The notes under the pieces are model-generated. The model was not told where the DNA came from. It made no database searches and was given only the letters and a program-made list of their open reading frames with translations. DNA of 64,000 bases from IMG/VR virus record IMGVR_UViG_3300030518_000006, positions 1 through 64,000 of that record. The stretch is one strand, 5' to 3'. This document shows, one piece after another, positions 23,064 to 63,800 of the stretch (within the stretch, counting starts at the first letter, position 1; every line of letters begins with the position of its first letter). Origin of the DNA: a virus. Both the position numbers and the translations under genes were made by a program.

Positions 23064-23462
23064 TTATCGCCGAGTCAGCGCGAAAAACAGGCCGCCGAAT
23101 GCCAAGAATACGGCCAGCTTCATCCCCGGGCTCATCCCCTGGGCCGGCGGATCCTCGCCCATCCCCACCTGGGTGAATTCCTGGTCGTCGAGCTCGTCGT
23201 CGTCTTCCATGTCGTGAGCGTCGTTGCCGGAGCGCGCCTGCACATCCATCCGGCGCCCGGTGCCAACCAGGTCATCATCGACGCGGGTCAGCTCGGCATT
23301 GTCCCAGCGCCGTGCGCGGTTCACCGAGATCACGTCCATCGGCTCGCCGACGTCCAAGCTATCATCATCGTCGCGCTGGGTGGTATTCACCCCCATGCCG
23401 GCGCGCGGGTCGATGGAGGCGACGGACTCAAGCGGGTTGTTCTGGCGGGCGAGGCGGGGCAT
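23064..23462 (-). CDS. Acidic protein with C-terminal membrane anchor (putative virion membrane protein)
   Basis: Ends LAVFLAFGGLFFALTRR; AGMG and VGMG motifs, RQNNP. Confidence 0.7.
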   Translation of the reverse strand: MPRLARQNNPLESVASIDPRAGMGVNTTQRDDDDSLDVGEPMDVISVNRARRWDNAELTRVDDDLVGTGRRMDVQARSGNDAHDMEDDDELDDQEFTQVGMGEDPPAQGMSPGMKLAVFLAFGGLFFALTRR

Positions 23463-29127: not shown

Positions 29128-30144
29128 TCACGCGCGAGCGCGGATGTGCCGGAACAACTTCACGCCGAGCCACCCGATGAGACCGATGCCGACTGCCGCG
29201 CCGACGTACTCGAGCACCTTGGTCGTGGTCGACCCACCCGACGCCTTCTCGATGGTGTTGAGCATGGTGTTGCTCTGGGCCTGGCGCTGTTCGAACTGGG
29301 TCTCGGTGATCTTGCCAGAGCGCAGATCCTGCTCGCTCTGCTGGTCGCGCCAGGCTACCAGGTTGGTCGCGAGGGTGGCAGCCTGGACCTGGGCAGCGGC
29401 CATCTGCCTGGCGTAGATCCAGACCGCCGCCGAGACGCTGGCGACGACTGTCAGGGCCACGGTGATCACGATCGGGAAGACACCCAGGCCAACATACTGC
29501 AGGGCCCCAGGGATGGCTCCCAGGGCGCTCTGGACCTGCCCCTTGAGGCCTTGGTAGGTCGCAGTCAGGGCGGTGATCTGCTGCTGCAGCGCGGCCGGGA
29601 TCTGGGCCCCGTACTGGTTCTGGATGGCGGTGATCACCCCCATCGAGAGCTGGGTGTTGGCCGCCGCCATCTTCAGGGTATCGAGAGCGTTCTGCAGGTC
29701 GCCCCAGATGTTCTGGACCGCGTCCTCGCCGGAGTAGTAGGCAACCGAGTTCCAGAAATCCACATTGCTCTGCAGCACTGCCGCCTGCTGGGCCAGCAGG
29801 GAGTTGTTCTGGGCAATGAAGGCGTTCTCGATTGGCTGGTATTGGGTGATGACCTGCTGCCAGGCTTGCAGGTTCGCCGGCAGCTGGAGCCAGCTCGGGA
29901 GCTGGGCCGCCGAGTACCCGTTGAAGTTGCGCAGGCGGGGGAAGGCGCCCGCGGCGAAGACCTGGGCGGCGATCGAGGCCAGGTTCTGGGGCACCCAGGA
30001 GAGCTGATTCTGGATGGTCTCGAACAGGGACGTCGTCGGAGTCATGTACGGGTTGAGATCCAACCCATCCGGCGGCGTATAGGGCGCAATGGCACTCTGG
30101 GACGCGGTGTCCAAGGCCATCAACGCGACGGGATCAGTCGCCAT
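29128..30144 (-). CDS. Helical Ala/Gln-rich membrane protein (putative virion/DNA-delivery protein)
   Basis: Internal TM after VGLG, C-terminal TM plus basic tail. Confidence 0.75.
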   Translation of the reverse strand: MATDPVALMALDTASQSAIAPYTPPDGLDLNPYMTPTTSLFETIQNQLSWVPQNLASIAAQVFAAGAFPRLRNFNGYSAAQLPSWLQLPANLQAWQQVITQYQPIENAFIAQNNSLLAQQAAVLQSNVDFWNSVAYYSGEDAVQNIWGDLQNALDTLKMAAANTQLSMGVITAIQNQYGAQIPAALQQQITALTATYQGLKGQVQSALGAIPGALQYVGLGVFPIVITVALTVVASVSAAVWIYARQMAAAQVQAATLATNLVAWRDQQSEQDLRSGKITETQFEQRQAQSNTMLNTIEKASGGSTTTKVLEYVGAAVGIGLIGWLGVKLFRHIRARA

Positions 30145-33895: not shown

Positions 33896-33896
33896 A

Positions 33897-35177: not shown

Positions 35178-35178
35178 C

Positions 35179-50426: not shown

Positions 50427-50434
50427 GCCTGACC

Positions 50435-50785
50435 ATGCCCCTCTACCACCTCCTCGCTCAGCCCCTGCCCAAGCTCACTCCCGACGGGAAGCGCGTCTGG
50501 GTCTGCATCTGCGGCCAGAAGGTCGCCCTGCCGAACGTCCAGCCGGCGAGCCAGGTGATCCAGACCTCGAACAACCGGGTGGAGGTCATGGAGTGCCCGG
50601 CCTGCTATGCTGGTACCGAGGAAAAGGGCGAAGAAGCCCCTCCGATGACCGAGCAGGGGGATATCAAACCGACCTTCGACCAAGATCTGGGAGATGCCAC
50701 GGACGACCAATCTGCGCCGGATGAGACGGGTGAAGATGGGGAGGTTCTGGAGGAGGAGAAGGTCGACTTCCCTGACGCGCGATGA
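50435..50785 (+). CDS. Zinc-ribbon protein C with acidic tail (copy 1)
   Basis: CICG ... CPAC; paralog at 53056-53406. Confidence 0.7.
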   Translation: MPLYHLLAQPLPKLTPDGKRVWVCICGQKVALPNVQPASQVIQTSNNRVEVMECPACYAGTEEKGEEAPPMTEQGDIKPTFDQDLGDATDDQSAPDETGEDGEVLEEEKVDFPDAR

Positions 50786-52617
50786 CCCGATATGGAAGCC
50801 TTTGTAGCGGTATTGAAGCAGCCACCGTTGCTTGGGATGGGATGGGATGGGAACCTGCATGGTTTAGCCAGTTCGATCCACAGCGTCCTGAAGGAGATTT
50901 CCCCTCTAGAATACTGGCCCACCACTACCCTGAAGTGCCTAACCTTGGGGATATTACATCTGAGAACTGGCTGACTCGGGCTTCAAGCTATGGCGATATC
51001 GACGTATTGGTTGGTGGAACCCCCTGCCAAGCGTTTTCCATTGCCGGGTTGCGCAAAGGCCTTGAAGATCGCCGGGGCCAATTATCCCTTCGTTTTGTGG
51101 AGATAGCCGATGCCGCAGACCCACCCGTCATCCTCTGGGAAAACGTCCCTGGAGTCCTTAGTGATCGAACCAATGGATTCGGTTGCCTCCTCGCTGGGCT
51201 TGCCGGTGAAGATGTGCCGCTCCAGCCAGCAGGGCGAACATGGTCGAACGCTGGTTGTGTGTTTGGCCCCAAAAGAACAGTCGCATGGCGGGTCCTCGAC
51301 GCCCAATATTTCGGACTGGCCCAACGACGCCGGCGTGTGTTTGTTGTCGCAAGTCCTGGAGCCAGCGGCATCGATCCATGCGAGATTCTATTTGAGTTCG
51401 AAGGCGTGCGCCGGGATTCTCCGCCGAGCCGCGAAGCGGGGGAAAGTACTTCCCATCCAATTGCACCGTGCCCTGATCGGAGTGGTACAGGGTTCAGTCG
51501 AACCGGAGATATCCGGGGACAGGATCCCGTTGTAGTCTGCATTACAGGTGATCGGACTCACGCGCTGAGCGCGGAAGGTGCAGATGCAGGTGAAGATGGA
51601 ACGGGACGGGGAACCCCAATTATCGCTGTCGGAGGAAATAATACTAGCGGCCCTATTACTGTTGCTGCTGCTTTGAATGCGAATAGGGGATGCCCTAACC
51701 CAGGAGACTTTGAGGCTGGAACCTTGCTTGTCGCCTTCGATACGACCCAGATCACTAGTAAGACGAATCGCTGCCAGCCGAAGCACGGAGATCCCTGTCA
51801 CCCTCTTGCTGCTGCTGCTCATCCTCCGGCGATAGCGATCCAGGAGCGAGCGATCTGTGAGAACCCCGATGCTGGACCTGATGGGATCGGGGTTCGCACT
51901 GATGACTGTGCTTATATCCTGGAAGCTCGAGGCGTTTCGCAGGCAGTATGCTTCCACCCGACACAAGACCCGATCCCGAATAGCGATAATATCTGCCATG
52001 CTCTTGGTTGCGGGAACGGTCAGGGGCACGCAGCAGCAGCAGCAGTGAATATCGGGGTTCGGGTCCGCCGTCTTACTCCTCGCGAGTGTGAACGCCTGCA
52101 GGGATTCCCAGATGACTATACTGATATCCCAAAGAAAGTCTTTCGAGGTACCCCGAAAGACTCAGGCCCATGTAAGAAACAAATTGTTGTCGCCACTGTT
52201 GTTTCATTGAACGGCACCCATTATGTTGGCACAAATCATACGATGAACCCTCAAACGACTTGCCCCCGGGCTGGAATGCCAACTGGCGTCGGATATGAAT
52301 TATGTCGCTCAATATGCCAGCAAACGGCACATGCAGAAGTAAACGCTCTTCAGCTTGCGGGCCGTAAAGCTCGCGGAGCAATACTTTATATAGAGGGGCA
52401 CACATACGCTTGTGAGCCTTGCCTTAAAGTAGCTAAAGCCGCCGAGATTAGTTCTATTGTTTTTGGGAAGCCTCCTGGCACCAGCGCCGATGGCCCCCGC
52501 TATAAAGCTCTTGGAAACAGCATGGCTGTCCCGGTAATGCGCTGGTTGGGATGGCGGATCGACAGTGCCTTGCGTACACGTTTGGGTGGGTATCCGGTTT
52601 ATGGGGAGATTCGGTGA
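50782..52617 (+). CDS. dcm: C5-cytosine DNA methyltransferase with long modular TRD and inserted dCMP-deaminase-like domain
   Basis: SLCSGI (I), GGTPCQ (IV), WENVPG (VI), AQRRRRVF (VIII), RRLTPRECERLQGFP (IX), YKALGNS (X); HAEVNA...CEPC between IX and X. Confidence 0.9.
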   Translation: MTRYGSLCSGIEAATVAWDGMGWEPAWFSQFDPQRPEGDFPSRILAHHYPEVPNLGDITSENWLTRASSYGDIDVLVGGTPCQAFSIAGLRKGLEDRRGQLSLRFVEIADAADPPVILWENVPGVLSDRTNGFGCLLAGLAGEDVPLQPAGRTWSNAGCVFGPKRTVAWRVLDAQYFGLAQRRRRVFVVASPGASGIDPCEILFEFEGVRRDSPPSREAGESTSHPIAPCPDRSGTGFSRTGDIRGQDPVVVCITGDRTHALSAEGADAGEDGTGRGTPIIAVGGNNTSGPITVAAALNANRGCPNPGDFEAGTLLVAFDTTQITSKTNRCQPKHGDPCHPLAAAAHPPAIAIQERAICENPDAGPDGIGVRTDDCAYILEARGVSQAVCFHPTQDPIPNSDNICHALGCGNGQGHAAAAAVNIGVRVRRLTPRECERLQGFPDDYTDIPKKVFRGTPKDSGPCKKQIVVATVVSLNGTHYVGTNHTMNPQTTCPRAGMPTGVGYELCRSICQQTAHAEVNALQLAGRKARGAILYIEGHTYACEPCLKVAKAAEISSIVFGKPPGTSADGPRYKALGNSMAVPVMRWLGWRIDSALRTRLGGYPVYGEIR

Positions 52618-52781
52618 TCCATATCGTTCTGTGTTCAGCCGTAGTTCTCCTTATCGTAGGGTTAATGCTTTATGTCACGGAGAGGCGGTTGCGAAGCTGG
52701 CCGGTATTTGTCCGCGTGTTATGGTATACAATGCTCGTTGTGGCAGCCTTCAATACTATGCACGGAGCATTTTTCGAATGA
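52614..52781 (+). CDS. Small two-TM protein (low GC)
   Basis: GTGA and ATGA coupling. Confidence 0.55.
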   Translation: MIHIVLCSAVVLLIVGLMLYVTERRLRSWPVFVRVLWYTMLVVAAFNTMHGAFFE

Positions 52782-52918
52782 CTCTTCCCCCGCCCGTCAT
52801 CTCGCTTGAGTCGCTGCTCTTCTGGAACCTGGCCGCCGCGGTCGGCATCACGCTGCTCGTCCGGTTCTTGGTGCTCTGGCTCGCCCGTACCCTATTCGGA
52901 GAGGGTCATGACCACTGA
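52778..52918 (+). CDS. Small TM protein A (copy 2)
   Basis: Duplicate of 49387-49527. Confidence 0.65.
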   Translation: MTLPPPVISLESLLFWNLAAAVGITLLVRFLVLWLARTLFGEGHDH

Positions 52919-53054
52919 GCAGCTCTACTACGCGACTGGCATCGCCTCCAATGTTCTGACCATCCTGACCTGCGCCTACACCATCTGGACGCTCCGCAGC
53001 TGGGTGGGCAGCACGGTGAAGAAGGCGCTCGACGACGTGAAGAAAGCGATCTGA
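52908..53054 (+). CDS. Small TM protein B (copy 2)
   Basis: Duplicate of 49517-49663. Confidence 0.65.
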   Translation: MTTEQLYYATGIASNVLTILTCAYTIWTLRSWVGSTVKKALDDVKKAI

Positions 53055-53055
53055 C

Positions 53056-53406
53056 ATGCCCCTCTACCACCTCCTCGGCCAGCCTCTCAACATCGACCCC
53101 AACACTGGCAAGCGCATCTGGGTCTGCCTGTGCGGGCAGAAGGTGAGCCTGCCGAATGTCCAGCCGGCGAACCAGGCGATCTCGATCTCCAACAACCGGG
53201 TGGAGGTCATGGAGTGCCCGGCGTGCTACAACGCCACGGATGAGAAGGAGGAAGAGGCCGCGCCGGTCAGCGAGACCGACGGGGAGCTCAAGCCGACCTT
53301 CGATCAGGACATCGGCGAGGCCACTGATGACCAGGAGGCACCTGACGAGACCACCGGCGACGGTGAGGTGCTCAAGGAAGAAAAGGTCGATTTCCCGGAT
53401 ACCTGA
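53056..53406 (+). CDS. Zinc-ribbon protein C with acidic tail (copy 2)
   Basis: CLCG ... CPAC. Confidence 0.7.
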   Translation: MPLYHLLGQPLNIDPNTGKRIWVCLCGQKVSLPNVQPANQAISISNNRVEVMECPACYNATDEKEEEAAPVSETDGELKPTFDQDIGEATDDQEAPDETTGDGEVLKEEKVDFPDT

Positions 53407-53838: not shown

Positions 53839-54324
53839 ATGGGTTACACCCGCACCCCGGCGCACTACACCGCTAGCGCTGCCTATCACGGCGGCGATCC
53901 GGTGTGGATCCGCCCTGCCAATCTCGACCTGCGCCGTATCAACCCCCAAGGCGGGGCCGCGCTCGGCGACGACGGCATTGACCTGATCGCGATGATCCCC
54001 CAGCTGACCCAGACCCTGGCAACCGTGGGCACCACGGCAGTCCAGTTGCGGGAACAGCAGATCCAGAACCAACGCCAGGACGCGAACCAGGCCCAAGCCG
54101 TCGCCGCGACGAATGCGCAGACCGCCGCCCTGGAGCAAGCAACGGCGGCGAACCAAGCCGTCGCCGACCCAACCGCATCGCCTGCGGCGGTACCGACTCC
54201 AGGCGTGTCACTTCCCACCCCGCACGGCAAGAAGGGGGGCGGCATGACTGTCCCCCTGATCATCGGGGGTACCGTCATCGGGATTGCCGTGGTTCTGGCA
54301 TTGCTCAAGCTCCGCCGGGGCTGA
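53839..54324 (+). CDS. Putative virion membrane protein (C-terminal anchor)
   Basis: Ends PLIIGGTVIGIAVVLALLKLRRG; AALGD motif. Confidence 0.75.
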   Translation: MGYTRTPAHYTASAAYHGGDPVWIRPANLDLRRINPQGGAALGDDGIDLIAMIPQLTQTLATVGTTAVQLREQQIQNQRQDANQAQAVAATNAQTAALEQATAANQAVADPTASPAAVPTPGVSLPTPHGKKGGGMTVPLIIGGTVIGIAVVLALLKLRRG

Positions 54325-54325
54325 T

Positions 54326-55540
54326 ATGGCCCGGTCCTACCAGCCCAACCTCGGGGCGCTCGAGCAGGCCCGGTACCAACACATGCACCGGAGAGCACGC
54401 AACCAGCTGGCCGGGTTGGGAGACGCATCCGTTCCGTACGTCCCGTCGGTCGCGGTCCAGGCAGCGATGACCCCGAACCTGACGGGCAGTGGCCCGACCA
54501 TGACCCAGACCGCAGCGGTCACCGCCACCATGAAGTCGGCAATCATCGCCGCGGCGGTTGAGGTGTCCCTGGCCCAGACCATCGTCTCCACTGTCGGGGA
54601 TGCCGTTATCAGCGCGGCCACAGTCGCCGCTGCCACGGCAATCACCGGTACTGCGGTCGCCGCAGGAGCCGCCGCCACGTCTGCATGCTTGTCCGCCGGG
54701 TGCTGCTGGCCGATTGTCGGGTGGGCCTTCGACGCCTTGGTGATCATCGGGGAATTCATCTCCAGCCAATCCGCCAAGCGCCAGACGGCGTTCGTGATCC
54801 AAGAGACCAAGGATCATATCAGCGCCTATGGCCAGGCGGCCCAGGCCGAGATCGACGCCATGCAACTCCAGATCGGGCAGTCCGTCTACCCGACCGCACA
54901 GGCCCTGGCTGCGTCGACCCAGGCCCTCAACGGCTTCAACGGACTCGGGGGTCTGCCGCCGTGGGCTCGGGAAGTGATCTCCAAGGTCCAGGTCGATCTG
55001 ATCAAGCAGGTCGGCAATCTGATCCTGAGTACCGGTGAACTCGGGGCCAAGATCGTGGGGGACAAGCATGGGGAAGAACTGGCTGCTAAGAAAAAGAAGC
55101 AGTTCGACGACAACTCGGACCGGGTCCAGCAGATGTTCTCCGGCAAGCTCAAGAACCCCTACCGGATGTTCGCCGACGGGCTCGACGATATCGGGCGCAC
55201 CCTCGGGGGTGAGCAGGGCGTGCACGTGATCAACCAGAAGTGCTCTGAACTCCAGACGGCGGCCGAGGCAGACATCGATACCTGGAAGACCCAGACCGAG
55301 GCGGTGCTCCAGACCCCCGACTACACCCAAGCGGTCACCGTCAACATCGCCAAGGCCCTACGCGCGGACCCGAGTTTTACCGCCAATGTCACCACGATCG
55401 CGGCCAACAACCAGATGCTGGTGGCCTACTTCAACGGACTCAACGGGCTCTCCACCGACTCGTCCCGAGCGAACAGCGCCGGTGGCTTGGTGGCGACCCT
55501 CGGAGGCATCGCTGCCGCCCTCTATTTCTTTAAGCATTGA
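54326..55540 (+). CDS. Putative virion membrane/penetration protein
   Basis: LAGLGD, FNGLGG motifs; Ala-rich hydrophobic hairpin ..WPIVGWA..; C-terminal TM. Confidence 0.75.
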   Translation: MARSYQPNLGALEQARYQHMHRRARNQLAGLGDASVPYVPSVAVQAAMTPNLTGSGPTMTQTAAVTATMKSAIIAAAVEVSLAQTIVSTVGDAVISAATVAAATAITGTAVAAGAAATSACLSAGCCWPIVGWAFDALVIIGEFISSQSAKRQTAFVIQETKDHISAYGQAAQAEIDAMQLQIGQSVYPTAQALAASTQALNGFNGLGGLPPWAREVISKVQVDLIKQVGNLILSTGELGAKIVGDKHGEELAAKKKKQFDDNSDRVQQMFSGKLKNPYRMFADGLDDIGRTLGGEQGVHVINQKCSELQTAAEADIDTWKTQTEAVLQTPDYTQAVTVNIAKALRADPSFTANVTTIAANNQMLVAYFNGLNGLSTDSSRANSAGGLVATLGGIAAALYFFKH

Positions 55541-55564
55541 AATACCAACCATACCCCCTATCCT
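55537..55564 (+). promoter_or_regulatory. Candidate sigma70 promoter
   Basis: TTGAAA-16 nt-TATCCT upstream of 55622. Confidence 0.5.
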
Positions 55565-55621
55565 GGCATCATCCGCTCTCATGAGCCCCGCGCCAACTTC
55601 TCCTTTCTAGGAACCCTACCC

Positions 55622-56293
55622 ATGGCTGGCTACCCCTCGATCAATGCTCCCGGCGCCCGTTCGCTCGCGGTGCCCCCGCCCAAGAGCCTGAAGATCCCGC
55701 TCGGGCGCCGACTGGACGCCAAGATGGCGAAGAACCTCATGTCCGCCCGCCCCAAGCGCGTGCCGCGCGACAATGGCGGCGGCGGGTTCTTCCCCGGCAT
55801 GGGTGAAGAGATGGACGAGACCGAGGTCAAGGTCGGGTACTCCGATCTCGGCCGGTGGTACGGCCCGAACCAGCGCCGCCCGGCGACCAGCGGCATGGCG
55901 CGCACCAATCGCCTTGCCGGCCTGGGCGACACCCCGACCGCCGGCTCCGGCACCCCCGGTGCGGCCACCGCGGCTCCCGCCCCGATCATCAAGCGCGTGC
56001 CCAATACCCCGCGTCACCTGGTGACCCAAGGCACCCCGACATCGATCTCCTCGGTCTCCGGCCTCGGCGCGCTGCACGCGGCAGCCCACGCCGCCCACGC
56101 CAAGACCAAGCATGCGGCGATCGTCAAGCACGCGGCGATCAAGGTGCACAAGCTCGCCCCGGCACACGACGGGTTCATGCCCGGCTTCGGCGCCTTCGAC
56201 ATGGCGAGCCTGACCAGCCCCAAGATGCTCATCGGCGGGGCGCTCGCCTTCGGCGCCTGGTATTTCCTGCTCCGCAAGAAGCGCCGCGCCTGA
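55622..56293 (+). CDS. Basic virion protein with multiple hxG(L/F/M)G motifs and C-terminal anchor
   Basis: FPGMGE, LAGLGD, VSGLGA, MPGFGA; ends ALAFGAWYFLLRKKRRA. Confidence 0.75.
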   Translation: MAGYPSINAPGARSLAVPPPKSLKIPLGRRLDAKMAKNLMSARPKRVPRDNGGGGFFPGMGEEMDETEVKVGYSDLGRWYGPNQRRPATSGMARTNRLAGLGDTPTAGSGTPGAATAAPAPIIKRVPNTPRHLVTQGTPTSISSVSGLGALHAAAHAAHAKTKHAAIVKHAAIKVHKLAPAHDGFMPGFGAFDMASLTSPKMLIGGALAFGAWYFLLRKKRRA

Positions 56294-56296
56294 GCC

Positions 56297-56746
56297 ATGG
56301 GCTGGCTGACCCCCGAGATCACCGCCCCCGTCACCCTGAAGCTCACCGCTGATGACGTGCGGCGCGAGGCCCTGGGGCGGATCCTGTCGCTCTCCGGGGC
56401 AAGTGTCGGCATCATCGGGGGCATCCTGATCCTGTCCGCGAATCCGGCGCTCAAGGGCGCGGTCACCGCCGGACAGGGCCAGACCATCACCCTGAGCGTC
56501 GCGGACGCCAAGAAGAGCGCCCTGGGCAAGTCCTTGGCCCTCATCGGTACTGGCATCGGTGTGGCAGGCTCCCTGCTGGTGATGAGCTCGAACCCGAAGT
56601 CCAAGGCCAAATTCGCGTCCGCCTATGACGCCCTGCCCGCCGGACTCAAGACCCACAAGAACGTGCTGATGGCCCTCGGTGGTGCCGCCGTGGTCGGCGG
56701 GATCGCCTACATGCTCAAACTCCAGAACTCGCAGTACGCCACATGA
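56297..56746 (+). CDS. Three-TM membrane protein
   Basis: Three Gly-rich hydrophobic segments. Confidence 0.75.
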   Translation: MGWLTPEITAPVTLKLTADDVRREALGRILSLSGASVGIIGGILILSANPALKGAVTAGQGQTITLSVADAKKSALGKSLALIGTGIGVAGSLLVMSSNPKSKAKFASAYDALPAGLKTHKNVLMALGGAAVVGGIAYMLKLQNSQYAT

Positions 56747-58536
56747 GCGACAACATCTTCACCCCGGTCGGCAACACGGACGAGGCGTCGGCCCTGATGG
56801 GAACCAGCGGCCGGGTCTGGTCCCCCTTCTCCCCGTTCTTCAACCAGCGCGCCGCGGTGAAGCGAGACTTCGCCGAAGAGCGCGGCCGGTTCAAGCGCAT
56901 CATGCGCCGCAATCCCCTCTCCGAGCAGGAGAAGCTCGCCCTGGTCAGCGGCACCGATCCCAAGGCTATCGTCCCGGTCACTGCCTCGCTCGCCGTCGGC
57001 GGCTTGATCGTGAACCGTGCTTGGGAGGATGCCGCTGACTACTGCGAGTATCTGGTCCGCCACTACCATTCCCGGATAGGTGGTGCGCGAGCGAAGGCGG
57101 ACGCTGCGCGAGCGAAGAAGGGGCAGGGCCCGAAGATCATATCCAGTTCAGCCATTACCTGGGCGGTGGCGTTCAGCGCCATCGGCCAATACTGCAGGGC
57201 CCTGGCCGAGGGCCGGGAGCCGACGCGCCCTGCGCGCACCATCGCCGACCGGAAGGTGGGGGCGGTGATCTCGATGTGGGATGACGTCCGCAAGTCCTGC
57301 CTGGCCGCGGAGGGCAACGTCAAGCTGCCGTTTGCCGCCTATTCCGAGATGCCGGTGGTGACCTGCCCCGGTGCCGGTGGGGTGACCAAGTTCTCCGGCC
57401 TGACGGGCAAGACCCTCGGCGTGGCAGTGCCAACCGGTCCCGATGTCCGCGGTTGCGCGTCCTTCTGCTACTCCCTGAAGGCCTTCGGCAAGCCCACCTG
57501 CGTCGCCCGCCAGCTGATCCTGACCCTCGGCGCGGCTGTGGATCCGGTGCGCCACGCCCAGGTAGTCACCGAGCAGATGACCAAGCTCGCCAAGAAGGGG
57601 ACCAAGATCCTGCGCCTGTTTGTCGATGGGGACTTCCGCAGCGAAGCCTCGATCATTGCCTGGATGGACCACTGCGTCCGCCCGCTGCATGCGCTCGGCG
57701 TCACCGTCTATGGGTACAGCAAGTCGTGGGAGCATCTCCATGCCGTGCACCGGCAGAAGGGCGCATCCTGGTGGCCGACCAACTATGTGATGAACATCTC
57801 GAGCGGCAGCCGCTTCGCATCGGATCCGACCTGGCAGGCGCGCATCCGTGAACTGCCGGTTGCCCGCGGCGGTTTCCTGGCGGTGGATCCAATCCAGCGT
57901 CTGCTGTGGAAGGCGATGACCAAGGTTCACGGTGAAGCGGTCTGGCAGAAGTACTGCAACGCGGCCAGCCGACACGTCGGTCACCCCGGTGCGGCCGAGA
58001 AGCTCCTGCATGCTGTGAAGTCCATGATTGGCAAGGCGAACCCGGCCCTCGTCACCGATTACAACAACTACGTCAACACCATCCACATCATCGAGAATAA
58101 GCCGAGTGTGCTCAAGCGCATCGCCTCGATCGCCGGCGAGAAGGCACTCAAGCCGGGCCCAGTTGTCCAGGCCAGCACCTGGGCCTTCTTGTCCGAGCTG
58201 GTCAAGGGGCAGGAGATGCCGTGCCCGATCGCATGCGGGTCGTGCCCAAAGACCGCGATCATCACCCACGACAAGGTTGTGCGCGCCGCCTTGCAGCCGG
58301 AGCTCGATGCCCTCGGGGCCGAAATGCAGAAGAAGCACGGGATCTCGGAGAAGGAGCGCCGAGACTGGGAGGAACACGTCCGGGGCACCGACGCGACGAC
58401 CGTGTCTGCTGGCGAGGCTGAGGCCCGCAAGAACTACCGCGCCCAGGTCGCCGCCCAGATCGAGAAGGGCTCACCGCTCATGCACTGGTGCGGGAACAAG
58501 AAGATGAAGCAAGACATCATCATCGGGTTGCATTGA
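56743..58536 (+). CDS. GP88-like Cys-motif protein with N-terminal RRNP
   Basis: TCPGAG ... CASFCY ... LRLFVDGDF ... YGYSKSW ... PTNYVMNISSGS; CPIACGSC. Confidence 0.7.
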   Translation: MSDNIFTPVGNTDEASALMGTSGRVWSPFSPFFNQRAAVKRDFAEERGRFKRIMRRNPLSEQEKLALVSGTDPKAIVPVTASLAVGGLIVNRAWEDAADYCEYLVRHYHSRIGGARAKADAARAKKGQGPKIISSSAITWAVAFSAIGQYCRALAEGREPTRPARTIADRKVGAVISMWDDVRKSCLAAEGNVKLPFAAYSEMPVVTCPGAGGVTKFSGLTGKTLGVAVPTGPDVRGCASFCYSLKAFGKPTCVARQLILTLGAAVDPVRHAQVVTEQMTKLAKKGTKILRLFVDGDFRSEASIIAWMDHCVRPLHALGVTVYGYSKSWEHLHAVHRQKGASWWPTNYVMNISSGSRFASDPTWQARIRELPVARGGFLAVDPIQRLLWKAMTKVHGEAVWQKYCNAASRHVGHPGAAEKLLHAVKSMIGKANPALVTDYNNYVNTIHIIENKPSVLKRIASIAGEKALKPGPVVQASTWAFLSELVKGQEMPCPIACGSCPKTAIITHDKVVRAALQPELDALGAEMQKKHGISEKERRDWEEHVRGTDATTVSAGEAEARKNYRAQVAAQIEKGSPLMHWCGNKKMKQDIIIGLH

Positions 58537-58605
58537 CGTGCTAACTGGCCCCCGTTCACGAATTCCAGTAGAATCCGCCACAACCCTGGATACAGTAGGC
58601 CACCT

Positions 58606-59040
58606 ATGATCCGCCGACGCCGCAGCCATCGCCGCTTCCGCCGCAACGCGCGCCCTGGTGAGAACCAGATCCCGACCGTGCGCATCGTCCGCCGGCCGAG
58701 CAAGAACCCCCGCCGCTTCATCCGCCGCAATGTGCCGATCACCCCGGCGCAGGCTGCCGCGATGAAGGCTGTCCTCCGAGCTCACGGCTACCTCAAGACC
58801 AACCCACTCCGCCGTCGCCACAAGCGGCGCAATCCCCGAAAGCACCGCATGGCACGCCATCACCGCAAGGTCCGCCGGAACCCCGCACCCCCGAAGGGCA
58901 AGCGCGCTGGCAGCGTGTTCAAGCGCAAGGGCAAGTGGTTCCGCATCTCACTCAAGAAGGTCCGCAAGGGTCGCCGCGTCGTCCGCCGCCGCGTCACCGT
59001 CAAGACCACCGCCCGCGCCGCGAAGCGCAGCCGCCGCTAA
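58606..59040 (+). CDS. Protamine-like Arg/Lys-rich core protein with (R/K)xNP repeats
   Basis: Extremely basic; SKNP, KTNP, RRNP x2. Confidence 0.75.
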   Translation: MIRRRRSHRRFRRNARPGENQIPTVRIVRRPSKNPRRFIRRNVPITPAQAAAMKAVLRAHGYLKTNPLRRRHKRRNPRKHRMARHHRKVRRNPAPPKGKRAGSVFKRKGKWFRISLKKVRKGRRVVRRRVTVKTTARAAKRSRR

Positions 59041-59074
59041 GCCTGCTCACCCTCACCTGATTCTGGAGACTCCC

Positions 59075-59305
59075 ATGCCCCGTCGCCGCCACAGCCGCTA
59101 CCGCCGGAACCCCGGCAAGCTCCCCGTCAAGGTCACCTTCCGCAAGGGTGGCAAGCACGTGGTGATCTTCCGTCACCACAAGGCCACCGCCGCGACCAAG
59201 GCCAAGCGCCGGGCCGCGGGCAAGCGCCTTGCCAAGATGTGGACCGCCAAGGAGCGGATGGCGAACCTGCGCAAGGCGTGGGCTGCGAACCGCCGCCGTC
59301 GCTGA
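59075..59305 (+). CDS. Small basic core protein with RRNP
   Basis: GGAGA RBS; MPRRRHSRYRRNPGK. Confidence 0.75.
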   Translation: MPRRRHSRYRRNPGKLPVKVTFRKGGKHVVIFRHHKATAATKAKRRAAGKRLAKMWTAKERMANLRKAWAANRRRR

Positions 59306-59378
59306 GTCGACCGTCAGCTGACCCGCAGCCCGGTCCTCCGCATCCTTGCGCGACCGGGCGGCACACCAGGACGAGCAC

Positions 59379-60470
59379 ATGCTCCCGCTCATCATCGGCA
59401 TCGGCGCCGCAGCCCTCCTCCTCGGCCGTAAGGTCGTACGACGGACACGTCGGAATCCGCGGACGTATCGGCGGGTGAGTCGGAGGAATCCGCTAGAGGC
59501 CTATCACTTCTACTTCAGCACCCACCCGTCACTGATCCACGGGAAGCGTATCGGGTGGACCCGTTACGGCATGAGCGCCGAGCAAGTGAAACGGCTTGGC
59601 ATCGCAGCAGCGAAACATGACTACCCGAAGGCCTGTGACTTCGCAGTGGCGAAGATCAAGAAAGGTTTACGGGCCAACCCCCTCCGCCGCGGCTCCTCCC
59701 GTGCCACCATCAGCGGCAACATCCGTAAGCTGATCCATGAAGGGCGCCCGCAGAAGCAGGCCATCGCCATCGCGCTGCGCACCGCTGGTGTCGCACGACG
59801 CAACCCGACCAACTGGGAGCAGCTGTTCGCCCAGGAGATGGCCCGCCAGCGCGCCGCTGGCACTGCAGCGCCCAAGCCGACCGGGTATGCAAGCGTCGCG
59901 ACGATGCCGAACCCCGGGAAAATAGGGAATCGAATCGTCGCGCGTCACATGATCATGACGCAGGGGCGTGATAAATCTCTGCGCGAAGCGATTGATAAGC
60001 AACTCATGTATTCCCCTGGATCCAGGGAGCGTAAGAACTGGGCAGAGATTGCCCGTATCCTCGCGGGCAAGACCAATCCACCCCGCCGCAAGGGCAAGCG
60101 CAAGGTCCGCCGCTCAAAGATCTCGGTGAGTCAGGCTGCGGCGCGGCTGATGCAGTGGCGGTGGCATCACAACCCGGGAGGCAGCGATCTGGTGCCCTGG
60201 ATTGTCGAGACCACCGAGATGCGCGGCTTCTCCCACGGCAAGCCCAACATCCGCACCGAGAAGAGCGCCTTCCGCGGTAAGAGCCACACCGCCAAGGCTC
60301 TCGCTGCTTGGGTGCTGCGCTACAACCAGTCCTTCACCTCGGGCGGGGTCAACAGTCACGCTTCCAAGGCCTTCGGCTACGAGCCCTACGCCTTCAAGGC
60401 CAAGCTGATCAACCAGCGCAATGGGCGAGTCGCCGCGACCTACAGCGCTCCGAAGTTCCAGGTGCTCTGA
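59379..60470 (+). CDS. N-terminally anchored basic polyprotein-like protein segmented by xxNP motifs
   Basis: AGGA RBS; TM MLPLIIGIGAAALLLG; RRNP x3, RANP, MPNP, KTNP, HHNP. Confidence 0.75.
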   Translation: MLPLIIGIGAAALLLGRKVVRRTRRNPRTYRRVSRRNPLEAYHFYFSTHPSLIHGKRIGWTRYGMSAEQVKRLGIAAAKHDYPKACDFAVAKIKKGLRANPLRRGSSRATISGNIRKLIHEGRPQKQAIAIALRTAGVARRNPTNWEQLFAQEMARQRAAGTAAPKPTGYASVATMPNPGKIGNRIVARHMIMTQGRDKSLREAIDKQLMYSPGSRERKNWAEIARILAGKTNPPRRKGKRKVRRSKISVSQAAARLMQWRWHHNPGGSDLVPWIVETTEMRGFSHGKPNIRTEKSAFRGKSHTAKALAAWVLRYNQSFTSGGVNSHASKAFGYEPYAFKAKLINQRNGRVAATYSAPKFQVL

Positions 60471-60473
60471 CCC

Positions 60474-63400
60474 ATGCGCTCCGCCACCCCCTCCCTCGCC
60501 GACGGCGACATCAACGCCGACTACAGCGTCCTGCCGGAGAACGGCAACGACGCGGTCGACGCGACCGTCCAGAAGATGGTCGAGATGGCGGCCGGCAAGT
60601 GGGGCCGCGAGAGTCCCAAGATCCGCGCTGCGGCGATCAACATCGTGCGGGGTCTGGATCCGATCACTGGCGAACGATTCGCGCCTCAGGTCGCCAGCAA
60701 GGACTACTACGGGATGCTCGAGCAGATCCACAACTGGGTCCGCGACAACATCATGTATGTCAAGGACGTAGTGGGTCAGGAAACCCTGAGTTATCCCGAA
60801 GAAACGCTCTTCAACTCCCGTGCAGAGGACTGTGATGGGCAAGTGATTCTGGAGATGGCCCTCCTCGGCTCGATCGGCTTGCAGAGCTATCCCGTCATCG
60901 TCGGGATGTTCCCGGGCCACTACTCACACGTCTACATGTATGCCGAGGTGCCCCCGGGGCGCCATCGCAACGCCGACACCACCTGGGCCGCCGATCCCAT
61001 CATGAAGGACTGGCCGCTTGGCAGGGAGGCCCCGGCTGATAGGGTCAAGGCTAAGAAGGTCTACTCGAACCTCGCAGGATTTAACATGCCACTCAACGGA
61101 TATGCTTCTTCCGACGCGGCGTTCTCTCCCCAGGACGAGCTCGAGGCCACGCAAGTCGGCACCGTGCTCGCCACCCGCCTGACCGACTCCGGGGGTGCTG
61201 GGCAGATCGTCAATGCGAACCGCCTGACCCAGTGGGGCGATGAGCTGGACGACATGTTCAATGCCGAAGCGACCGTCAATCCGATGCAGGCCGCGCCTGC
61301 CAGCCTGCTCTACGCCCGCGGCCCGGTGGTCGCCCGTGCAGCACGCGAGCAGACCTCCTACCTCAGCGAAGCCCCGCTCGGCGGGGGACGCAACCGGCCC
61401 GGGATGCGCCGTGGCCCCCTGATCATCACGGTCAAGGACAAGGCAGTCGGCGATTCGGTCACCAAGCCCAAGGCTCCGACCGTCAACGGCCTGATGGGCC
61501 TGGCAGACTACCTCGGTGAGCTCGCCCCGATCGCCAAGGTGGTCGGCAAGCGCATGAGCGTGAACGGCAAGCGCGACGCGCTCCATGCCACAGCGGCGGC
61601 AGCCCACCTCGCCAAGAACCAGGCCAAGAAGGCGACCAACCGGGTGGTCAAGCTGCAGCGCGACGGGTTCATGCCCGGCTTCGGCGCCGACATGCAGCCG
61701 GACAAGACGCTCGATGTCGCCATGCAGATCGAGAAGCTGGCCCACCAGGTCTCGGCCCAGGCCGATCAGATCGCCCAGCTCGCCGCCGGCAGCAGCCCAC
61801 TCCGCCAGCAGGCCCTGAGTGTCGATCTCGGGGCGATGGACTACATGAACGAGCATGCCGCGGTGTCGGACCTGCTCGACAACATGCAGCTCCCCAACGT
61901 GCCGACCAAGGACATGGCCAAGCTCAAGTCCGTCGCCCTGGTCAACTGCATCCAGGATCCGGACGTCAAGCAGCTCGCCGTCGATCTCGCCCAGACCGAT
62001 CTGCCGACCGCACCTGGTGCACGCGTCAAGACCCGGCTGCCCGAGGGCGCCATCGTGCGTGACCAGATGGGCAAGGTCATCCAGAATGGCGGGGGTGATG
62101 ATAGCCTGGCCGGCCTGGGCGAACTCACCCGCAAGCGCCGCATCAAGCGCGCCCTGGCCGAGTTCAACGAGAGCACCGACACCAGCGCCATCGCCAACGC
62201 CCTGCGCGCCTCGGCGAATGGCCTGGCGGGCTACGCGAATGAACCGGGCCTCGGGCGTTCCCTGAGCCAGGCCATCAGCGGCGTGGCCAAGTCCGTGGTC
62301 GCCAGCATCACGGTCCCCGTCAAAGCTGCGGTCGCGACCGTGGTCGACCCGATCAAGCTCGCCCAGACCGTCGCCACCGGCGGCTCGGTGAAGGCGGCGC
62401 TCACGAGTGACGTCCAGAACGTCACCAACCCGATGAACCAGGCGCTCAAGCAGATCGTCACCAGCACCCAGAAGGCTCCCTCGACCCCGGCGACCCCGGC
62501 GACCCAGTATGAAGACGCCAACGGCAATATCATCAGCGCTGGGTTGTACAACAGCCTGATGTTGAACCCGTCGACCCCTGAGAGTTGCTTCGACGCGAAC
62601 GGCAGCGCCCTGAACACGACCGGCTGCGTCTACGCGCCGGGCACCCCGGGCGCGACCGTGACCCAGACCACCGGCGCGTCGACCCTGTCCCAGTTCCCCG
62701 GCGGGACCTGCTTCAGCGCATCCGGTGCCTCGACCGGTGCGACCGGATGCTTCAGCCCGTCGACCGGTGCGGCCTGCTGGACCTTCACCAGCGCCACGAC
62801 CGCCCCGACCGCGACCAACGCGGCCCCGGACTGCCCGATGGCTCCGGTGTCTGGATACAACCCCCAGGTCATGGGCCCCTATGCCAGCGGCCCGGGCGCT
62901 CAATGCTTCAACGTGACCACGGGTCAGCCGACCGGTGTGCCGGGATGCACGAGCCCCTCGACCGGTGTGGCGTGCTACGCCTGGCAGGGCCCGTCCGCCC
63001 CGCCGGTCGCGACCAATGCCGCGCCTGACTGCGCCGGGGCGACGTACAATCCGTACGCTGCCCAGCAGCCGTACTATCCGCCCGGCGGCGGTGCGTCACC
63101 GTACGACCAGTCCACGCCCGATGGCACCAACTACGACCCGAATACGGGTGAGAGCCTGACCTCGACCCCGGACTACTCCAACCAGGGTCCCCCGGACGAC
63201 AGCGGCTTCGGGCCCGACCAGATGGGCCCGGCGTCCTATGCGGACAACAGTCAGCAGGACGAGAACACCGTGGCGGTCTCGGCCAGCGGTGGCGGCGGGT
63301 TCGACCCCTCGGGCAACTCGGGCATCACCGCCGGCGGCCAGTCTGACAGCGGTGATGATGGCTCGGATGATGGCGGCTCGGATGATGGCGGCTCGGATGA

Positions 63401-63800
63401 TGGCGGCACTGATGATGGCTCGGGCGATGCGACCGATGTGTCCCAGTACAACGCCCCGTCCCAGGCCCCGAAGCACAAGAAGCACAAGTATTACAACATG
63501 GACACCGACTCGGGCGGTGACAACTCGGACACCAGCGACAGCGGCGAGGCCTCCGACGATGACAGTGACCTCGACACCGGGATCAACGGCGACGTGGCCA
63601 CGGGGGACATGTACCCCGAGGACGATCTCAACGAGGATGGGGGCGCCGGCTACGGCCGGGGCACCGCCCTGACCCCGTCGATCGAAGGCCTCGGGGCCTT
63701 CTCCGCCTCCAGCCTGGTCAAGCCGGCACTCGCGATCGGCCTGGGCATCATCCTGTGGAAGACCGTCGGTAAGAAGCTCTTCAAGCGGAAGCGTGCCTGA
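60474..63800 (+). CDS. Transglutaminase-like (Cys-His-Asp) domain fused to long virion polyprotein-like region with C-terminal anchor
   Basis: WVRDNIMY..D; EDCDG; YSHVY; WAADP; then multiple GLG/GFG motifs, Cys repeats, acidic region, TM plus KKLFKRKRA. Confidence 0.8.
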   Translation: MRSATPSLADGDINADYSVLPENGNDAVDATVQKMVEMAAGKWGRESPKIRAAAINIVRGLDPITGERFAPQVASKDYYGMLEQIHNWVRDNIMYVKDVVGQETLSYPEETLFNSRAEDCDGQVILEMALLGSIGLQSYPVIVGMFPGHYSHVYMYAEVPPGRHRNADTTWAADPIMKDWPLGREAPADRVKAKKVYSNLAGFNMPLNGYASSDAAFSPQDELEATQVGTVLATRLTDSGGAGQIVNANRLTQWGDELDDMFNAEATVNPMQAAPASLLYARGPVVARAAREQTSYLSEAPLGGGRNRPGMRRGPLIITVKDKAVGDSVTKPKAPTVNGLMGLADYLGELAPIAKVVGKRMSVNGKRDALHATAAAAHLAKNQAKKATNRVVKLQRDGFMPGFGADMQPDKTLDVAMQIEKLAHQVSAQADQIAQLAAGSSPLRQQALSVDLGAMDYMNEHAAVSDLLDNMQLPNVPTKDMAKLKSVALVNCIQDPDVKQLAVDLAQTDLPTAPGARVKTRLPEGAIVRDQMGKVIQNGGGDDSLAGLGELTRKRRIKRALAEFNESTDTSAIANALRASANGLAGYANEPGLGRSLSQAISGVAKSVVASITVPVKAAVATVVDPIKLAQTVATGGSVKAALTSDVQNVTNPMNQALKQIVTSTQKAPSTPATPATQYEDANGNIISAGLYNSLMLNPSTPESCFDANGSALNTTGCVYAPGTPGATVTQTTGASTLSQFPGGTCFSASGASTGATGCFSPSTGAACWTFTSATTAPTATNAAPDCPMAPVSGYNPQVMGPYASGPGAQCFNVTTGQPTGVPGCTSPSTGVACYAWQGPSAPPVATNAAPDCAGATYNPYAAQQPYYPPGGGASPYDQSTPDGTNYDPNTGESLTSTPDYSNQGPPDDSGFGPDQMGPASYADNSQQDENTVAVSASGGGGFDPSGNSGITAGGQSDSGDDGSDDGGSDDGGSDDGGTDDGSGDATDVSQYNAPSQAPKHKKHKYYNMDTDSGGDNSDTSDSGEASDDDSDLDTGINGDVATGDMYPEDDLNEDGGAGYGRGTALTPSIEGLGAFSASSLVKPALAIGLGIILWKTVGKKLFKRKRA
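63354..63423 (+). repeat. Tandem 15-bp repeat GATGATGGCGGCTCG (DDGGS)n
   Basis: Direct reading, about 5 imperfect units. Confidence 0.85.

What the first reader, a model, noticed from the sequence alone, without database searches (positions are those of the whole stretch)
53839..63800. Adenovirus-protease-like hxG(L/F/M)G sites across membrane-anchored virion proteins
Seen: LAGLGD and FNGLGG (54326); FPGMGE, LAGLGD, VSGLGA, MPGFGA (55622); LMGLA, MPGFGA, LAGLGE, LAGYA, EPGLG, IEGLGA (60474); YVGLGV (29128); AGMG and VGMG (23064). Several lie just before the TM anchor or at low-complexity boundaries. Established: adenain cleaves (M/I/L)XGX|G and (M/I/L)XGG|X, and Gly-directed maturation cleavage is typical of eukaryotic PRD1-adenovirus-lineage viruses, not of PRD1 or PM2. 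Inference: a second, orthogonal maturation code in a bacterial virus.
Basis: partly seen in the sequence, partly recalled or inferred. Interest (0 to 1): 0.82.

Follow-up and report, generated by a model that had tools for sequence, protein, structure and literature searches.

The report
Conserved glycine motif in phage membrane proteins
A short motif (hydrophobic-x-Gly-Leu/Met/Phe-Gly) recurs in the membrane-anchored virion proteins of an uncultured 97-kb tailless virus and its relatives, next to a virion-borne cysteine-protease-like domain, so it may mark protein-cutting sites like those of adenovirus, though no cutting has been shown.

Summary
Every listed string is present. In the + strand late block (53.8-66.9 kb), G[LFM]G occurs 17 times against 5.0±2.1 in shuffles, and h-x-G[LFM]G 13 times against 2.0. 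The other 23,436 aa of the genome show no excess.

The motif is conserved. GFFPGMGEE and GFMPGFGA are invariant in homologues down to 47% identity. In 69 homologues of the 1108-aa protein the motif occurs 201 times against 37 expected, at recurrent positions. Six of seven syntenic relatives, one at 47% GC, show 6-13-fold enrichment.

The consensus, [LMVI]-x-G-[LMF]-G/A, has the form of adenain type 1 sites. Type 2 sites (xGG-X) are not enriched, and no C5, C48 or C57 peptidase is encoded.

The 1108-aa motif-rich protein starts with a transglutaminase-fold Cys-His-Asp domain (Z 13.3; invariant Cys, interrupted by an intein in some relatives). It is homologous to structural protein gp34 of the membrane phage SSIP-1. 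The genome lacks HK97 capsid and terminase matches and has jelly-roll capsid paralogues, so it looks like a large internal-membrane virus.

Best reading (about 0.4): these are processing sites cut by this membrane-tethered protease. Cleavage is not shown. A binding motif or a structural hinge remains possible. The same scan also flagged the transglutaminase-like domain on this DNA.

The parts
54326..55540 (+). 404-aa polytopic membrane protein. It carries LAGLG-D at nt 54407-54421 (residues 28-32), after a basic N-terminal stretch. A second site, FNGLG at nt 54935-54949, is not conserved.
   Evidence: GLGD is invariant in four full-length homologues at 63-77% identity, while P4 and P3 vary.
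55622..56293 (+). 223-aa tail-anchored protein (C-terminal TM plus RKKRRA). It has four sites: FPGMG 55790-55804, LAGLG 55913-55927, VSGLG 56054-56068 and MPGFG 56177-56191. The last lies about 13 aa before the TM helix.
   Evidence: In 8 homologues at 47-88% identity, GFFPGMGEE and GFMPGFGA are invariant, V[SA]GLG is kept, and LAGLGD becomes G[LMFK]G/A.
60474..63800 (+). 1108-aa tail-anchored, motif-studded protein. Sites are LMGLA 61491-61505, MPGFG 61671-61685, LAGLG 62106-62120, LAGYA 62223-62237, EPGLG 62241-62255 and IEGLG 63681-63695. The TM anchor is at about 63699-63755, followed by a basic tail.
   Evidence: There are 823 homologues at E<=1e-3. Sites are positionally conserved in 7-15 of 19 full-length homologues. 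The largest insertions in the alignment fall at residues 204, 394/407 and 1076, next to sites.
60495..61073 (+). N-terminal transglutaminase-fold cysteine-protease-like domain (residues ~8-200). The putative triad is Cys120 (60831-60833), His152 (60927-60929) and Asp174 (60993-60995).
   Evidence: The AF2 model has pLDDT 89. Foldseek finds 3isr, TglA, LapG, PNGase and PeiW/PeiP. VIA gives Z 13.3 to 3kd4, about 11 to transglutaminases, PNGase and 3isr, and 9.1 to LapG and PeiP. The profile against PDB sequences hits 3isr at E 2e-5 with Cys, His and Asp aligned. C120 is invariant, and H152 and D174 are conserved. tblastn hits SSIP-1 structural protein gp34.
63803..64000 (+). Start of a 291-aa tail-anchored protein that runs off the window (genome 63803-64678). 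Its paralogue lies at 64688-65380. Both carry GFMPGMAGFAGLG at residues 92-104 (genome 64100-64114 and 64985-64999).
   Evidence: The orthologues keep the site: FMPGMGEL and MSGLGAD (L037), FIPGIGED (L038), HIPGVGES (L039), FMPGMGDL (L047) and YLPGLGEE (L051).
53839..54324 (+). 161-aa tail-anchored late protein without the motif. It marks the start of the late membrane-protein block.
29479..29496 (-). YVGLGV in the 29128-30144 protein. It lies inside a predicted TM helix and is not counted as part of the system.
   Evidence: There is no enrichment outside the late block.
23157..23168 (-). VGMG(ED) about 13 aa before the C-terminal TM of the 132-aa protein 23064-23462. P4 is not hydrophobic, so membership is doubtful.
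   Evidence: No homologue was found in the relatives.

Best explanation
The motif phi-x-G-(L/M/F)-G/A, with phi = L, M, V, I or F and often D, E or A next, is a selected short linear motif. It is shared by otherwise unrelated membrane-anchored late (virion) proteins of a lineage of large (~90-110 kb) tailless viruses with jelly-roll capsid proteins.

The most likely function is a set of proteolytic processing sites, read by one enzyme. The best candidate is the transglutaminase-fold Cys-His-Asp domain at the N-terminus of the 1108-aa protein, which is held in the same membrane by a C-terminal anchor.

On this reading the enzyme would:
(i) free itself at the conserved [ED]L[AS]GLG site just after its own domain (degenerate in this genome);
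(ii) cut the long polyprotein-like membrane proteins into pieces;
(iii) remove short basic N-terminal peptides;
(iv) detach cargo from C-terminal TM anchors, which would then act as removable targeting signals for the viral membrane.

Shown: the motif, its enrichment, its conservation, its placement, and the fold and conserved triad of the candidate enzyme. Inferred: that the motif is cut at all, where the bond is cut, and which enzyme does it.
For: - Enrichment is confined to the late block and survives whole-protein, local-block and Markov nulls.
- Longer shared words occur in unrelated proteins: (D/Q)GFMPG[FM] in four proteins and xLAGLG[DE] in three.
- In the 55622 family the motifs are among the invariant blocks down to 47% identity.
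- In 69 homologues of the 1108-aa protein, h-x-G[LFMIV]G occurs 201 times against 36.8±5.3. P4 is L, M, V or I in 186 of 247 sites, and P1 is L or M in 194 of 247.
- The sites recur at the same alignment positions, next to the largest insertion points.
- 19 of 63 TM-anchored homologues carry the motif 5-19 aa before the anchor, against 1.9 expected.
- Late blocks of six of seven syntenic relatives are enriched 6-13-fold, including L051 at 47% GC (8 against 0.61), so GC content does not explain it.
- Orthologues of the 65421 protein keep xxGLG about 10 aa before the TM while the flanks diverge.
- The candidate enzyme has a confident transglutaminase-core fold, an invariant Cys and a conserved His and Asp.
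- In several relatives an intein sits exactly at that Cys, which fits an essential active site.
- Precedent: LapG is a transglutaminase-like C-H-D protease. It cuts between two small residues (Ala108|Ala109) to release an anchored protein (PMC3032545).
- The motif has the form of the adenain type 1 site (PMC3386624).
Against: - There is no direct evidence of cleavage: no proteomics and no mature N-termini.
- The transglutaminase fold also houses cross-linking enzymes, PNGase and the viral pseudomurein isopeptidases PeiW/PeiP. The domain could therefore be an entry, cell-wall or cross-linking enzyme.
- One relative (L044) keeps the domain but has few motifs: 3 against 0.78, reached by 24 of 500 shuffles.
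- Short distant homologues are domain plus TM anchor with no motif.
- SSIP-1 has only loose G[LM]G sites without a hydrophobic P4.
- Some sites are not kept even in the closest relative.
- Homologue counts are inflated by shared ancestry.
Confidence: 0.4

Rival explanations
1. The motif is a non-proteolytic docking motif. A shared partner, such as the capsid protein, a scaffold or a membrane-shaping factor, binds phi-x-G-phi-G to recruit or position membrane proteins under the capsid. Nothing is cut.
For: The same facts that show a selected short linear motif apply here: enrichment, conservation and location in linkers and just before TM anchors. L044 keeps the enzyme domain with few motifs, so enzyme and motif are not strictly coupled.
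Against: Up to six copies occur per protein, at domain junctions and directly after the protease-like domain. That is more typical of processing sites than of a docking peg. The Gly-rich, small-residue core resembles known protease sites (PMC3386624, PMC3032545). No partner has been identified.
Confidence: 0.22
2. The sites are cut, but by a host protease or by another, unrecognised viral protease. The transglutaminase-fold domain is instead a virion entry enzyme (a cell-wall peptidase or isopeptidase like PeiW/PeiP) or a cross-linker.
For: The fold matches include PeiP and PeiW, PNGase and true transglutaminases at Z 9-11. Membrane phages commonly carry virion-associated lytic enzymes (established knowledge for PRD1 P7 and P15). 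Short homologues consist of domain plus anchor without motifs.
Against: No other protease family was found apart from a SprT-like metalloprotease motif at 25827-27392. A conserved site directly follows the domain in 11 of 19 homologues.
Confidence: 0.15
3. The motifs are structural elements without a common reader. They could be Gly-phi-Gly turns or hinges between helices, or membrane-interface, fusion-peptide-like segments that recur by convergence in membrane-associated proteins.
For: Several copies sit between predicted helices or near TM segments. GLG also occurs inside TM helices, as in AIGLG and YVGLGV. A weak Pfam hit links the 63803 protein to a reovirus fusion protein (E 0.023).
Against: Many copies lie in hydrophilic, charged contexts such as NRLAGLGDTP, DDSLAGLGELTRKRR and GGGFFPGMGEEMDE. 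There is a P4 hydrophobic preference and a P2' preference for acid or Ala. Identical 7-9-residue words occur in unrelated proteins.
Confidence: 0.15
4. The excess is a by-product of Gly/Leu-rich composition, low complexity or paralogy.
For: The late proteins are Gly-rich (9.8%) and GxG is mildly elevated (52 against 40.7). Two proteins are paralogues. The Markov-1 null gives only a two-fold excess.
Against: The block shuffles, the x = L/F/M bias within GxG (p = 7e-5), the P4 bias, the positional conservation and the enrichment in a 47% GC relative all argue against it.
Confidence: 0.03
5. It is a true adenain-type system, in which a clan CE (C5/C48/C57) protease homologous to that of adenoviruses and polintons reads the sites.
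For: The motif has the form of adenain type 1 sites (PMC3386624).
Against: PF00770, PF02902 and PF03290 give no match at E<=10 in a record that CheckV rates as complete. Type 2 sites are not enriched. Clan CE maturation proteases are regarded as an acquisition of the eukaryotic virus branch (PMC4405056).
Confidence: 0.02

Closest known systems
Adenovirus protease (adenain, MEROPS C5) and its sites (M/I/L)XGX-G and (M/I/L)XGG-X
   Same: The motif has the same form: hydrophobic P4, Gly P2 and Gly P1'. There are several copies per precursor, and the targets are minor virion, membrane-active and core-type proteins of a jelly-roll-capsid virus. Arg-rich core-like proteins lie next door (58606-59305).
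   Different: There is no clan CE protease gene, and the candidate enzyme has an unrelated transglutaminase fold with C-H-D order. P1 is restricted to L, M or F. Type 2 sites are not enriched. The capsid protein looks single jelly-roll and the host is prokaryotic. Cleavage is unproven.
LapG / BTLCP (bacterial transglutaminase-like cysteine proteinases)
   Same: It shares the transglutaminase-like fold with a C-H-D triad (Z 9.1). It cuts between small residues (Ala|Ala) to release a protein from its anchor (PMC3032545).
   Different: LapG is a periplasmic host enzyme regulated by c-di-GMP through LapD. It has a single substrate site and a different motif. The sequence relation is weak (E 0.0065 to 4u65_E).
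[quoted passage not shown]
   Same: It is the only homologue in a cultured virus: 35-40% identity over the transglutaminase-like core. It has a C-terminal TM anchor, a GMG site after the domain, and belongs to an internal-membrane tailless phage.
   Different: gp34 is 304 aa with one loose site, and SSIP-1 is 43.8 kb. No other clear gene is shared.
Capsid-targeting sequences removed by prohead proteases (T4 gp21, phiKZ gp175) in tailed phages
   Same: The logic is the same: a targeting segment brings cargo into the particle and is then clipped at a short consensus site repeated in many virion proteins (established knowledge).
   Different: The proteases are unrelated, being of the serine/herpesvirus-assemblin type. 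Those sites follow Glu, and no membrane anchor is involved.
Sortase, exosortase and archaeosortase C-terminal sorting signals (LPXTG, PEP-CTERM, PGF-CTERM)
   Same: The C-terminus is tripartite: a short motif, a TM helix and a basic tail. PGFG is literally present in two proteins.
   Different: The motif lies 5-19 aa before the TM instead of adjoining it, and it also occurs N-terminally and internally. NCBIfam sorting-signal models do not match; the best is the LPXTG anchor at 12.2 bits against a cut-off of 15.9, over the TM and tail only. No sortase-like gene was sought beyond the Pfam scans.

Membership tests
Adenain-type maturation system (MEROPS C5, clan CE) | A clan CE cysteine protease gene (Peptidase_C5, C48 or C57) in the genome | tested here: not met
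   PF00770, PF02902 and PF03290 give no match at E<=10 in the 96.8-kb record, which CheckV rates 100% complete.
Adenain-type maturation system (MEROPS C5, clan CE) | Type 1 consensus (M/I/L)XGX-G over-represented in virion precursors | tested here: met
   [MIL]xGxG occurs 11 times against 5.6±2.2 (4 of 300 shuffles reach it). The narrower h-x-G[LFM]G occurs 13 times against 1.95. In the homologue logo P4 is L, M, V or I in 75% of sites.
Adenain-type maturation system (MEROPS C5, clan CE) | Type 2 consensus (M/I/L)XGG-X over-represented | tested here: not met
   6 observed against 5.6±2.3.
Adenain-type maturation system (MEROPS C5, clan CE) | Precursors are actually cleaved at the sites | not testable with these tools
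   This needs virion proteomics or an in vitro assay. The SSIP-1 paper, which may list N-termini, is not held.
Transglutaminase-like cysteine protease superfamily (for residues 8-200 of the 1108-aa protein) | Transglutaminase-core fold | tested here: met
   The AF2 model has pLDDT 89.3. Foldseek gives E 4e-5 to 3isr. VIA gives Z 13.3 (3kd4; rmsd 3.0 over 146 residues) and Z 10-11 to TG2, TG3, FXIII, PNGase and 3isr.
Transglutaminase-like cysteine protease superfamily (for residues 8-200 of the 1108-aa protein) | Conserved Cys-His-Asp triad in that order | tested here: met
   C120 is invariant in 43 and in 18 sequences. H152 is nearly invariant in the first set and invariant in the second. D174 is invariant in the closer set. 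All three align to the Cys, His and Asp of 3isr.
Transglutaminase-like cysteine protease superfamily (for residues 8-200 of the 1108-aa protein) | Match to the Pfam Transglut_core model (PF01841) | tested here: not met
   There is no match at E<=10 and no Pfam hit for the protein. The relationship is seen only by profile against PDB sequences (E 2e-5) and by fold.
Transglutaminase-like cysteine protease superfamily (for residues 8-200 of the 1108-aa protein) | Peptidase activity, rather than transamidase, amidase or isopeptidase activity | not testable with these tools
   The fold is shared by all of these activities.
Tailless internal-membrane viruses with single jelly-roll capsid proteins (Sphaerolipoviridae-like or SPV1-like) | Jelly-roll major capsid protein | tested here: inconclusive
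   The 191-aa protein at 69700-70275 gives an all-beta model with pLDDT 80. The best matches are the SPV1 capsid protein (Z 8.7), then HHIV-2 (7.0), P23-77 VP17 (6.9) and HCIV-1 (6.7). Foldseek gives E 1.7e-3. These Z values are middling.
Tailless internal-membrane viruses with single jelly-roll capsid proteins (Sphaerolipoviridae-like or SPV1-like) | FtsK/A32-type packaging ATPase | tested here: inconclusive
   No Walker A motif was found outside the UvrD helicase, and SSIP-1 gp40 gives no credible hit. No profile search for the family was run.
Tailless internal-membrane viruses with single jelly-roll capsid proteins (Sphaerolipoviridae-like or SPV1-like) | Absence of tailed-phage hallmarks | tested here: met
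   There is no Phage_capsid (PF05065) or Terminase_6N (PF03237) match. About 70 proteins scanned against Pfam gave no portal, tail or terminase hit.
Sortase/exosortase-type C-terminal sorting signals | Match to a curated sorting-signal model | tested here: not met
   In NCBIfam only the LPXTG_anchor model hits, at 12.2 bits against a cut-off of 15.9 and E 0.23. It covers the TM helix and basic tail only.

The most novel reading that the evidence does not exclude
A widespread, uncultured lineage of large prokaryotic jelly-roll, internal-membrane viruses has independently evolved an adenovirus-like, glycine-directed maturation system. A membrane-tethered transglutaminase-fold cysteine protease would process itself and cut polyprotein-like membrane proteins at phi-x-G-(L/M/F)|G. 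It would also release virion cargo from C-terminal TM anchors, which would serve as removable packaging signals for the viral membrane.
Probability: 0.3. Interest if true: 0.8.

Novelty: new variant of a known kind. Interest (0 to 1): 0.62.

Why it matters
Proteolytic maturation at Gly-containing sites is seen as a hallmark of the eukaryotic branch of the jelly-roll capsid viruses (adenoviruses, virophages, polintons, giant viruses). It is thought to have been acquired with a Ulp1-like protease. The bacterial membrane-containing relatives (tectiviruses) lack such a protease (PMC4405056).

A prokaryotic lineage with a motif of the same form but an unrelated enzyme fold would show convergent evolution of virion maturation. 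It would give a first handle on how a ~97-kb tailless membrane virus loads and frees its internal proteins. It would also define a new, compact protease/site pair.

The motif is useful even if cleavage is not confirmed. Together with the transglutaminase-fold protein and the 190-aa capsid protein, it marks this lineage in metagenomes. The capsid family has 123 homologues, on contigs up to 115 kb.

Tried and rejected
- Complex prediction of the transglutaminase-fold domain (residues 8-205) with residues 40-110 of the 55622 protein returned no verdict (score 0.02). It counts neither for nor against binding.
- The SSIP-1 paper (PMC3344969), which may list N-terminal sequences of structural proteins, is not held.
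- A DNA pattern scan for GFMPGFG in IMG/VR gave 28 stretches. Only the two from the close relative were in a real frame and context.
- The metagenome scan with A1 gave only three ~1-kb contigs.
- The genome-contig scan with the capsid alignment gave one Planctomycetota MAG contig.
- NCBIfam gave no sorting-signal or other family for the late proteins. PHROGs gave only unknown-function hits.
- P0089 begins exactly at the MPGLG site. I judged this to be a gene call at an internal Met of a truncated contig, not evidence of a natural split.
- The GLGD string recalls the GxGD motif of presenilin-type proteases. I rejected this because it lies in a hydrophilic N-terminal stretch, not in a TM helix.
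- No literature was found on transglutaminase-like virion proteins of membrane phages.

Full report
**What the DNA is.** The window is the first 64 kb of a 96,773-bp IMG/VR virus record (linear, CheckV 100%).
- About 70 of its larger proteins were scanned against Pfam. They gave a family A DNA polymerase, SNF2 and UvrD helicases, a C5 methyltransferase with a deaminase insert, a serine recombinase and a GP88 domain. No portal, terminase, tail or HK97 capsid turned up.
- A 191-aa protein just beyond the window (69700-70275) has three paralogues and 123 metagenomic homologues, on contigs of up to 115 kb.
- Its AF2 model (pLDDT 80) is an all-beta jelly roll. The best structural matches are capsid proteins of internal-membrane viruses: SPV1 (Z 8.7), HHIV-2 (7.0), P23-77 VP17 (6.9) and HCIV-1 (6.7). 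These Z values are middling.
- The + strand block 53.8-66.9 kb encodes orphan proteins. Most have a C-terminal TM helix and a basic tail.
- Together this fits a large tailless virus with an internal membrane. One relative sits in a Planctomycetota MAG, which is only a hint at the host.

**The observation.**
- In the 14 late proteins (4256 aa), G[LFM]G occurs 17 times against 5.0±2.1 in shuffles. With a hydrophobic residue two positions upstream it occurs 13 times against 1.95.
- Shuffling inside 25-aa blocks gives 5.7±2.3 and 1.5±1.2. A first-order Markov expectation is 8.1.
- Within GxG triplets the middle residue is L, F or M far more often than composition predicts (p = 7e-5). P4 is hydrophobic in 11 of 17 sites.
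- The remaining 23,436 aa of the genome show nothing (24 against 19.6).
- Longer words are shared by unrelated proteins: (D/Q)GFMPG[FM] in four, GFFPGMGEE in one, and xLAGLG[DE] in three.
- Adenain type 2 sites are not enriched.
- The sites quoted in the 29128 and 23064 proteins lie outside the enriched block. One of them is inside a TM helix.

**Conservation.**
- Homologues of the 223-aa protein (47-88% identity) keep GFFPGMGEE and GFMPGFGA invariant and V[SA]GLG conserved. The LAGLGD site is kept as G[LMFK]G/A.
- A full-library search with residues 1-620 of the 1108-aa protein found 823 relatives.
- In the 69 best, h-x-G[LFMIV]G occurs 201 times against 36.8±5.3. The logo is [LMVI]-x-G-[LM]-G-[ADSE].
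- The sites recur at fixed alignment positions: just after the N-terminal domain ([ED]L[AS]GLG, 11 of 19; degenerate here), at 340 (ELxGLADY, 14 of 19), at 402 (15 of 19), at 584 (9 of 19), and before the TM anchor (7 of 19).
- These positions lie next to the largest insertion points of the alignment.
- 19 of 63 TM-anchored homologues have the motif 5-19 aa before the anchor, against 1.9 expected.
- Syntenic relatives from IMG/VR show the same enrichment in their late blocks: L037 5 against 0.63, L038 9/1.18, L039 5/0.55, L047 6/0.67, L049 5/0.90 and L051 8/0.61. L051 has only 47% GC, so composition is not the cause.
- L044 is a weak outlier (3 against 0.78).
- Homologue counts share ancestry, so they overstate independence. 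The turnover of flanks around retained motifs is still the signature of a selected short linear motif.

**The candidate reader.**
- No adenain, Ulp1 or I7 family match exists in the genome.
- Residues 8-200 of the 1108-aa motif-rich protein fold with pLDDT 89 into a transglutaminase core.
- Foldseek finds a putative cysteine protease (3isr), TglA, LapG, PNGase and PeiW/PeiP. VIA gives Z 13.3 to 3kd4 and about 11 to transglutaminases, PNGase and 3isr.
- A profile of the family hits 3isr at E 2e-5 with Cys, His and Asp aligned.
- Cys120 is invariant, and His152 and Asp174 are conserved.
- In L044, L049, L051 and several database relatives an intein interrupts the protein exactly at this Cys. Inteins typically sit in essential active sites.
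- The domain is homologous to structural protein gp34 of the membrane-containing phage SSIP-1.
- LapG shows that this fold can be a protease that cuts between small residues to free an anchored protein (PMC3032545).

**Reading.** I favour processing sites read by this membrane-tethered enzyme (about 0.4).
- The placement fits: after the enzyme's own domain, between segments of polyprotein-like proteins, after short basic N-terminal peptides, and before TM anchors.
- The anchors would then work as removable targeting signals, as capsid-targeting sequences do in T4-like phages.
- No cut has been observed.
- The fold also serves cross-linkers, amidases and viral cell-wall isopeptidases. L044 and the short homologues show that enzyme and motif are not strictly coupled. 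A docking motif or a structural hinge therefore remains open.
- The complex prediction gave no verdict.

**Comparison and novelty.**
- The motif has the form of adenain type 1 sites (PMC3386624), but membership of the adenain system fails on the protease gene and on type 2 sites.
- Tectiviruses lack a maturation protease, and the clan CE enzyme is regarded as a eukaryotic-branch acquisition (PMC4405056). A prokaryotic lineage with a convergent Gly-directed code and an unrelated enzyme would be a new variant of a known kind.
- I found no paper describing this lineage or its motif.

Noticed in passing
L044:1480-4266; also L049:1080-5222, L051:2-1393, and P0010, P0013, P0017, P0022, P0033, P0035: In several relatives an intein of about 300 aa (it ends in VVHN|C) is inserted exactly at the catalytic Cys of the transglutaminase-fold domain (GGDC|LDENTR...VVHN|CDDM). 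The copy in this window has no intein.
   Followed up: partly
window 49665-50426 (+); genome 66931-67659 (-), 67563-68738 (-), 69700-70275 (+): There are four paralogues of the ~190-aa jelly-roll capsid-like protein, sharing the motifs QIGEK.Y, PPVQ.F and L.G.L.REI. The 391-aa copy carries a BrnA-antitoxin-like domain (PF14384, E 1.5e-9). Two of the four lie antisense inside the late block.
   Followed up: partly
window 50375-53406: The C5 methyltransferase with an inserted deaminase domain (50782-52617) is flanked by two paralogous zinc-ribbon-like genes (50375-50785 and 53056-53406). The close relative L004 has one such gene and gave no tblastn match to the methyltransferase in the stretches held (late-block proteins only). 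The cassette looks like an insertion with a target-gene duplication.
   Followed up: partly
window 58606-59040 and 59075-59305: Two Arg-rich, protamine-like proteins are 100% and 97% identical to those of relative L004, while neighbouring late proteins are 65-87% identical. They are candidates for DNA-condensing core proteins. They lack the Gly motif but carry basic-xNP motifs that another note flagged.
   Followed up: no
window 32615-36468 (-) and 36453-39668 (-): Three tandem ORFs of 426-429 aa (not compared with one another) are followed by a 1071-aa protein. They lie in a stretch of lower GC (58-60%) and have no Pfam match. They may be host-recognition or spike proteins.
   Followed up: no
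genome ~68650-69501 (+), just upstream of the capsid gene: This protein has an Arg-rich N-terminus and TM segments. Its C-terminal region has three LAGYVDARAYNGTG-like repeats plus LNGLGG and LAGIGS. The orthologues in L037, L038, L039, L044, L047, L049 and L051 keep similar AGY/GLG repeats.
   Followed up: partly
window 25827-27392 (-): This 521-aa protein has a weak SprT-like zinc-metalloprotease match (E 4e-5, below the Pfam cut-off). It is conserved in relative L039. It is the only other protease-like signature seen in the genome.
   Followed up: no
L044 (JANXQG010000447.1): A 22-kb contig binned into a Planctomycetota MAG carries the capsid gene (50% identity) and the syntenic late block. 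This is a hint at the host phylum, although binning may be by composition only.
   Followed up: no
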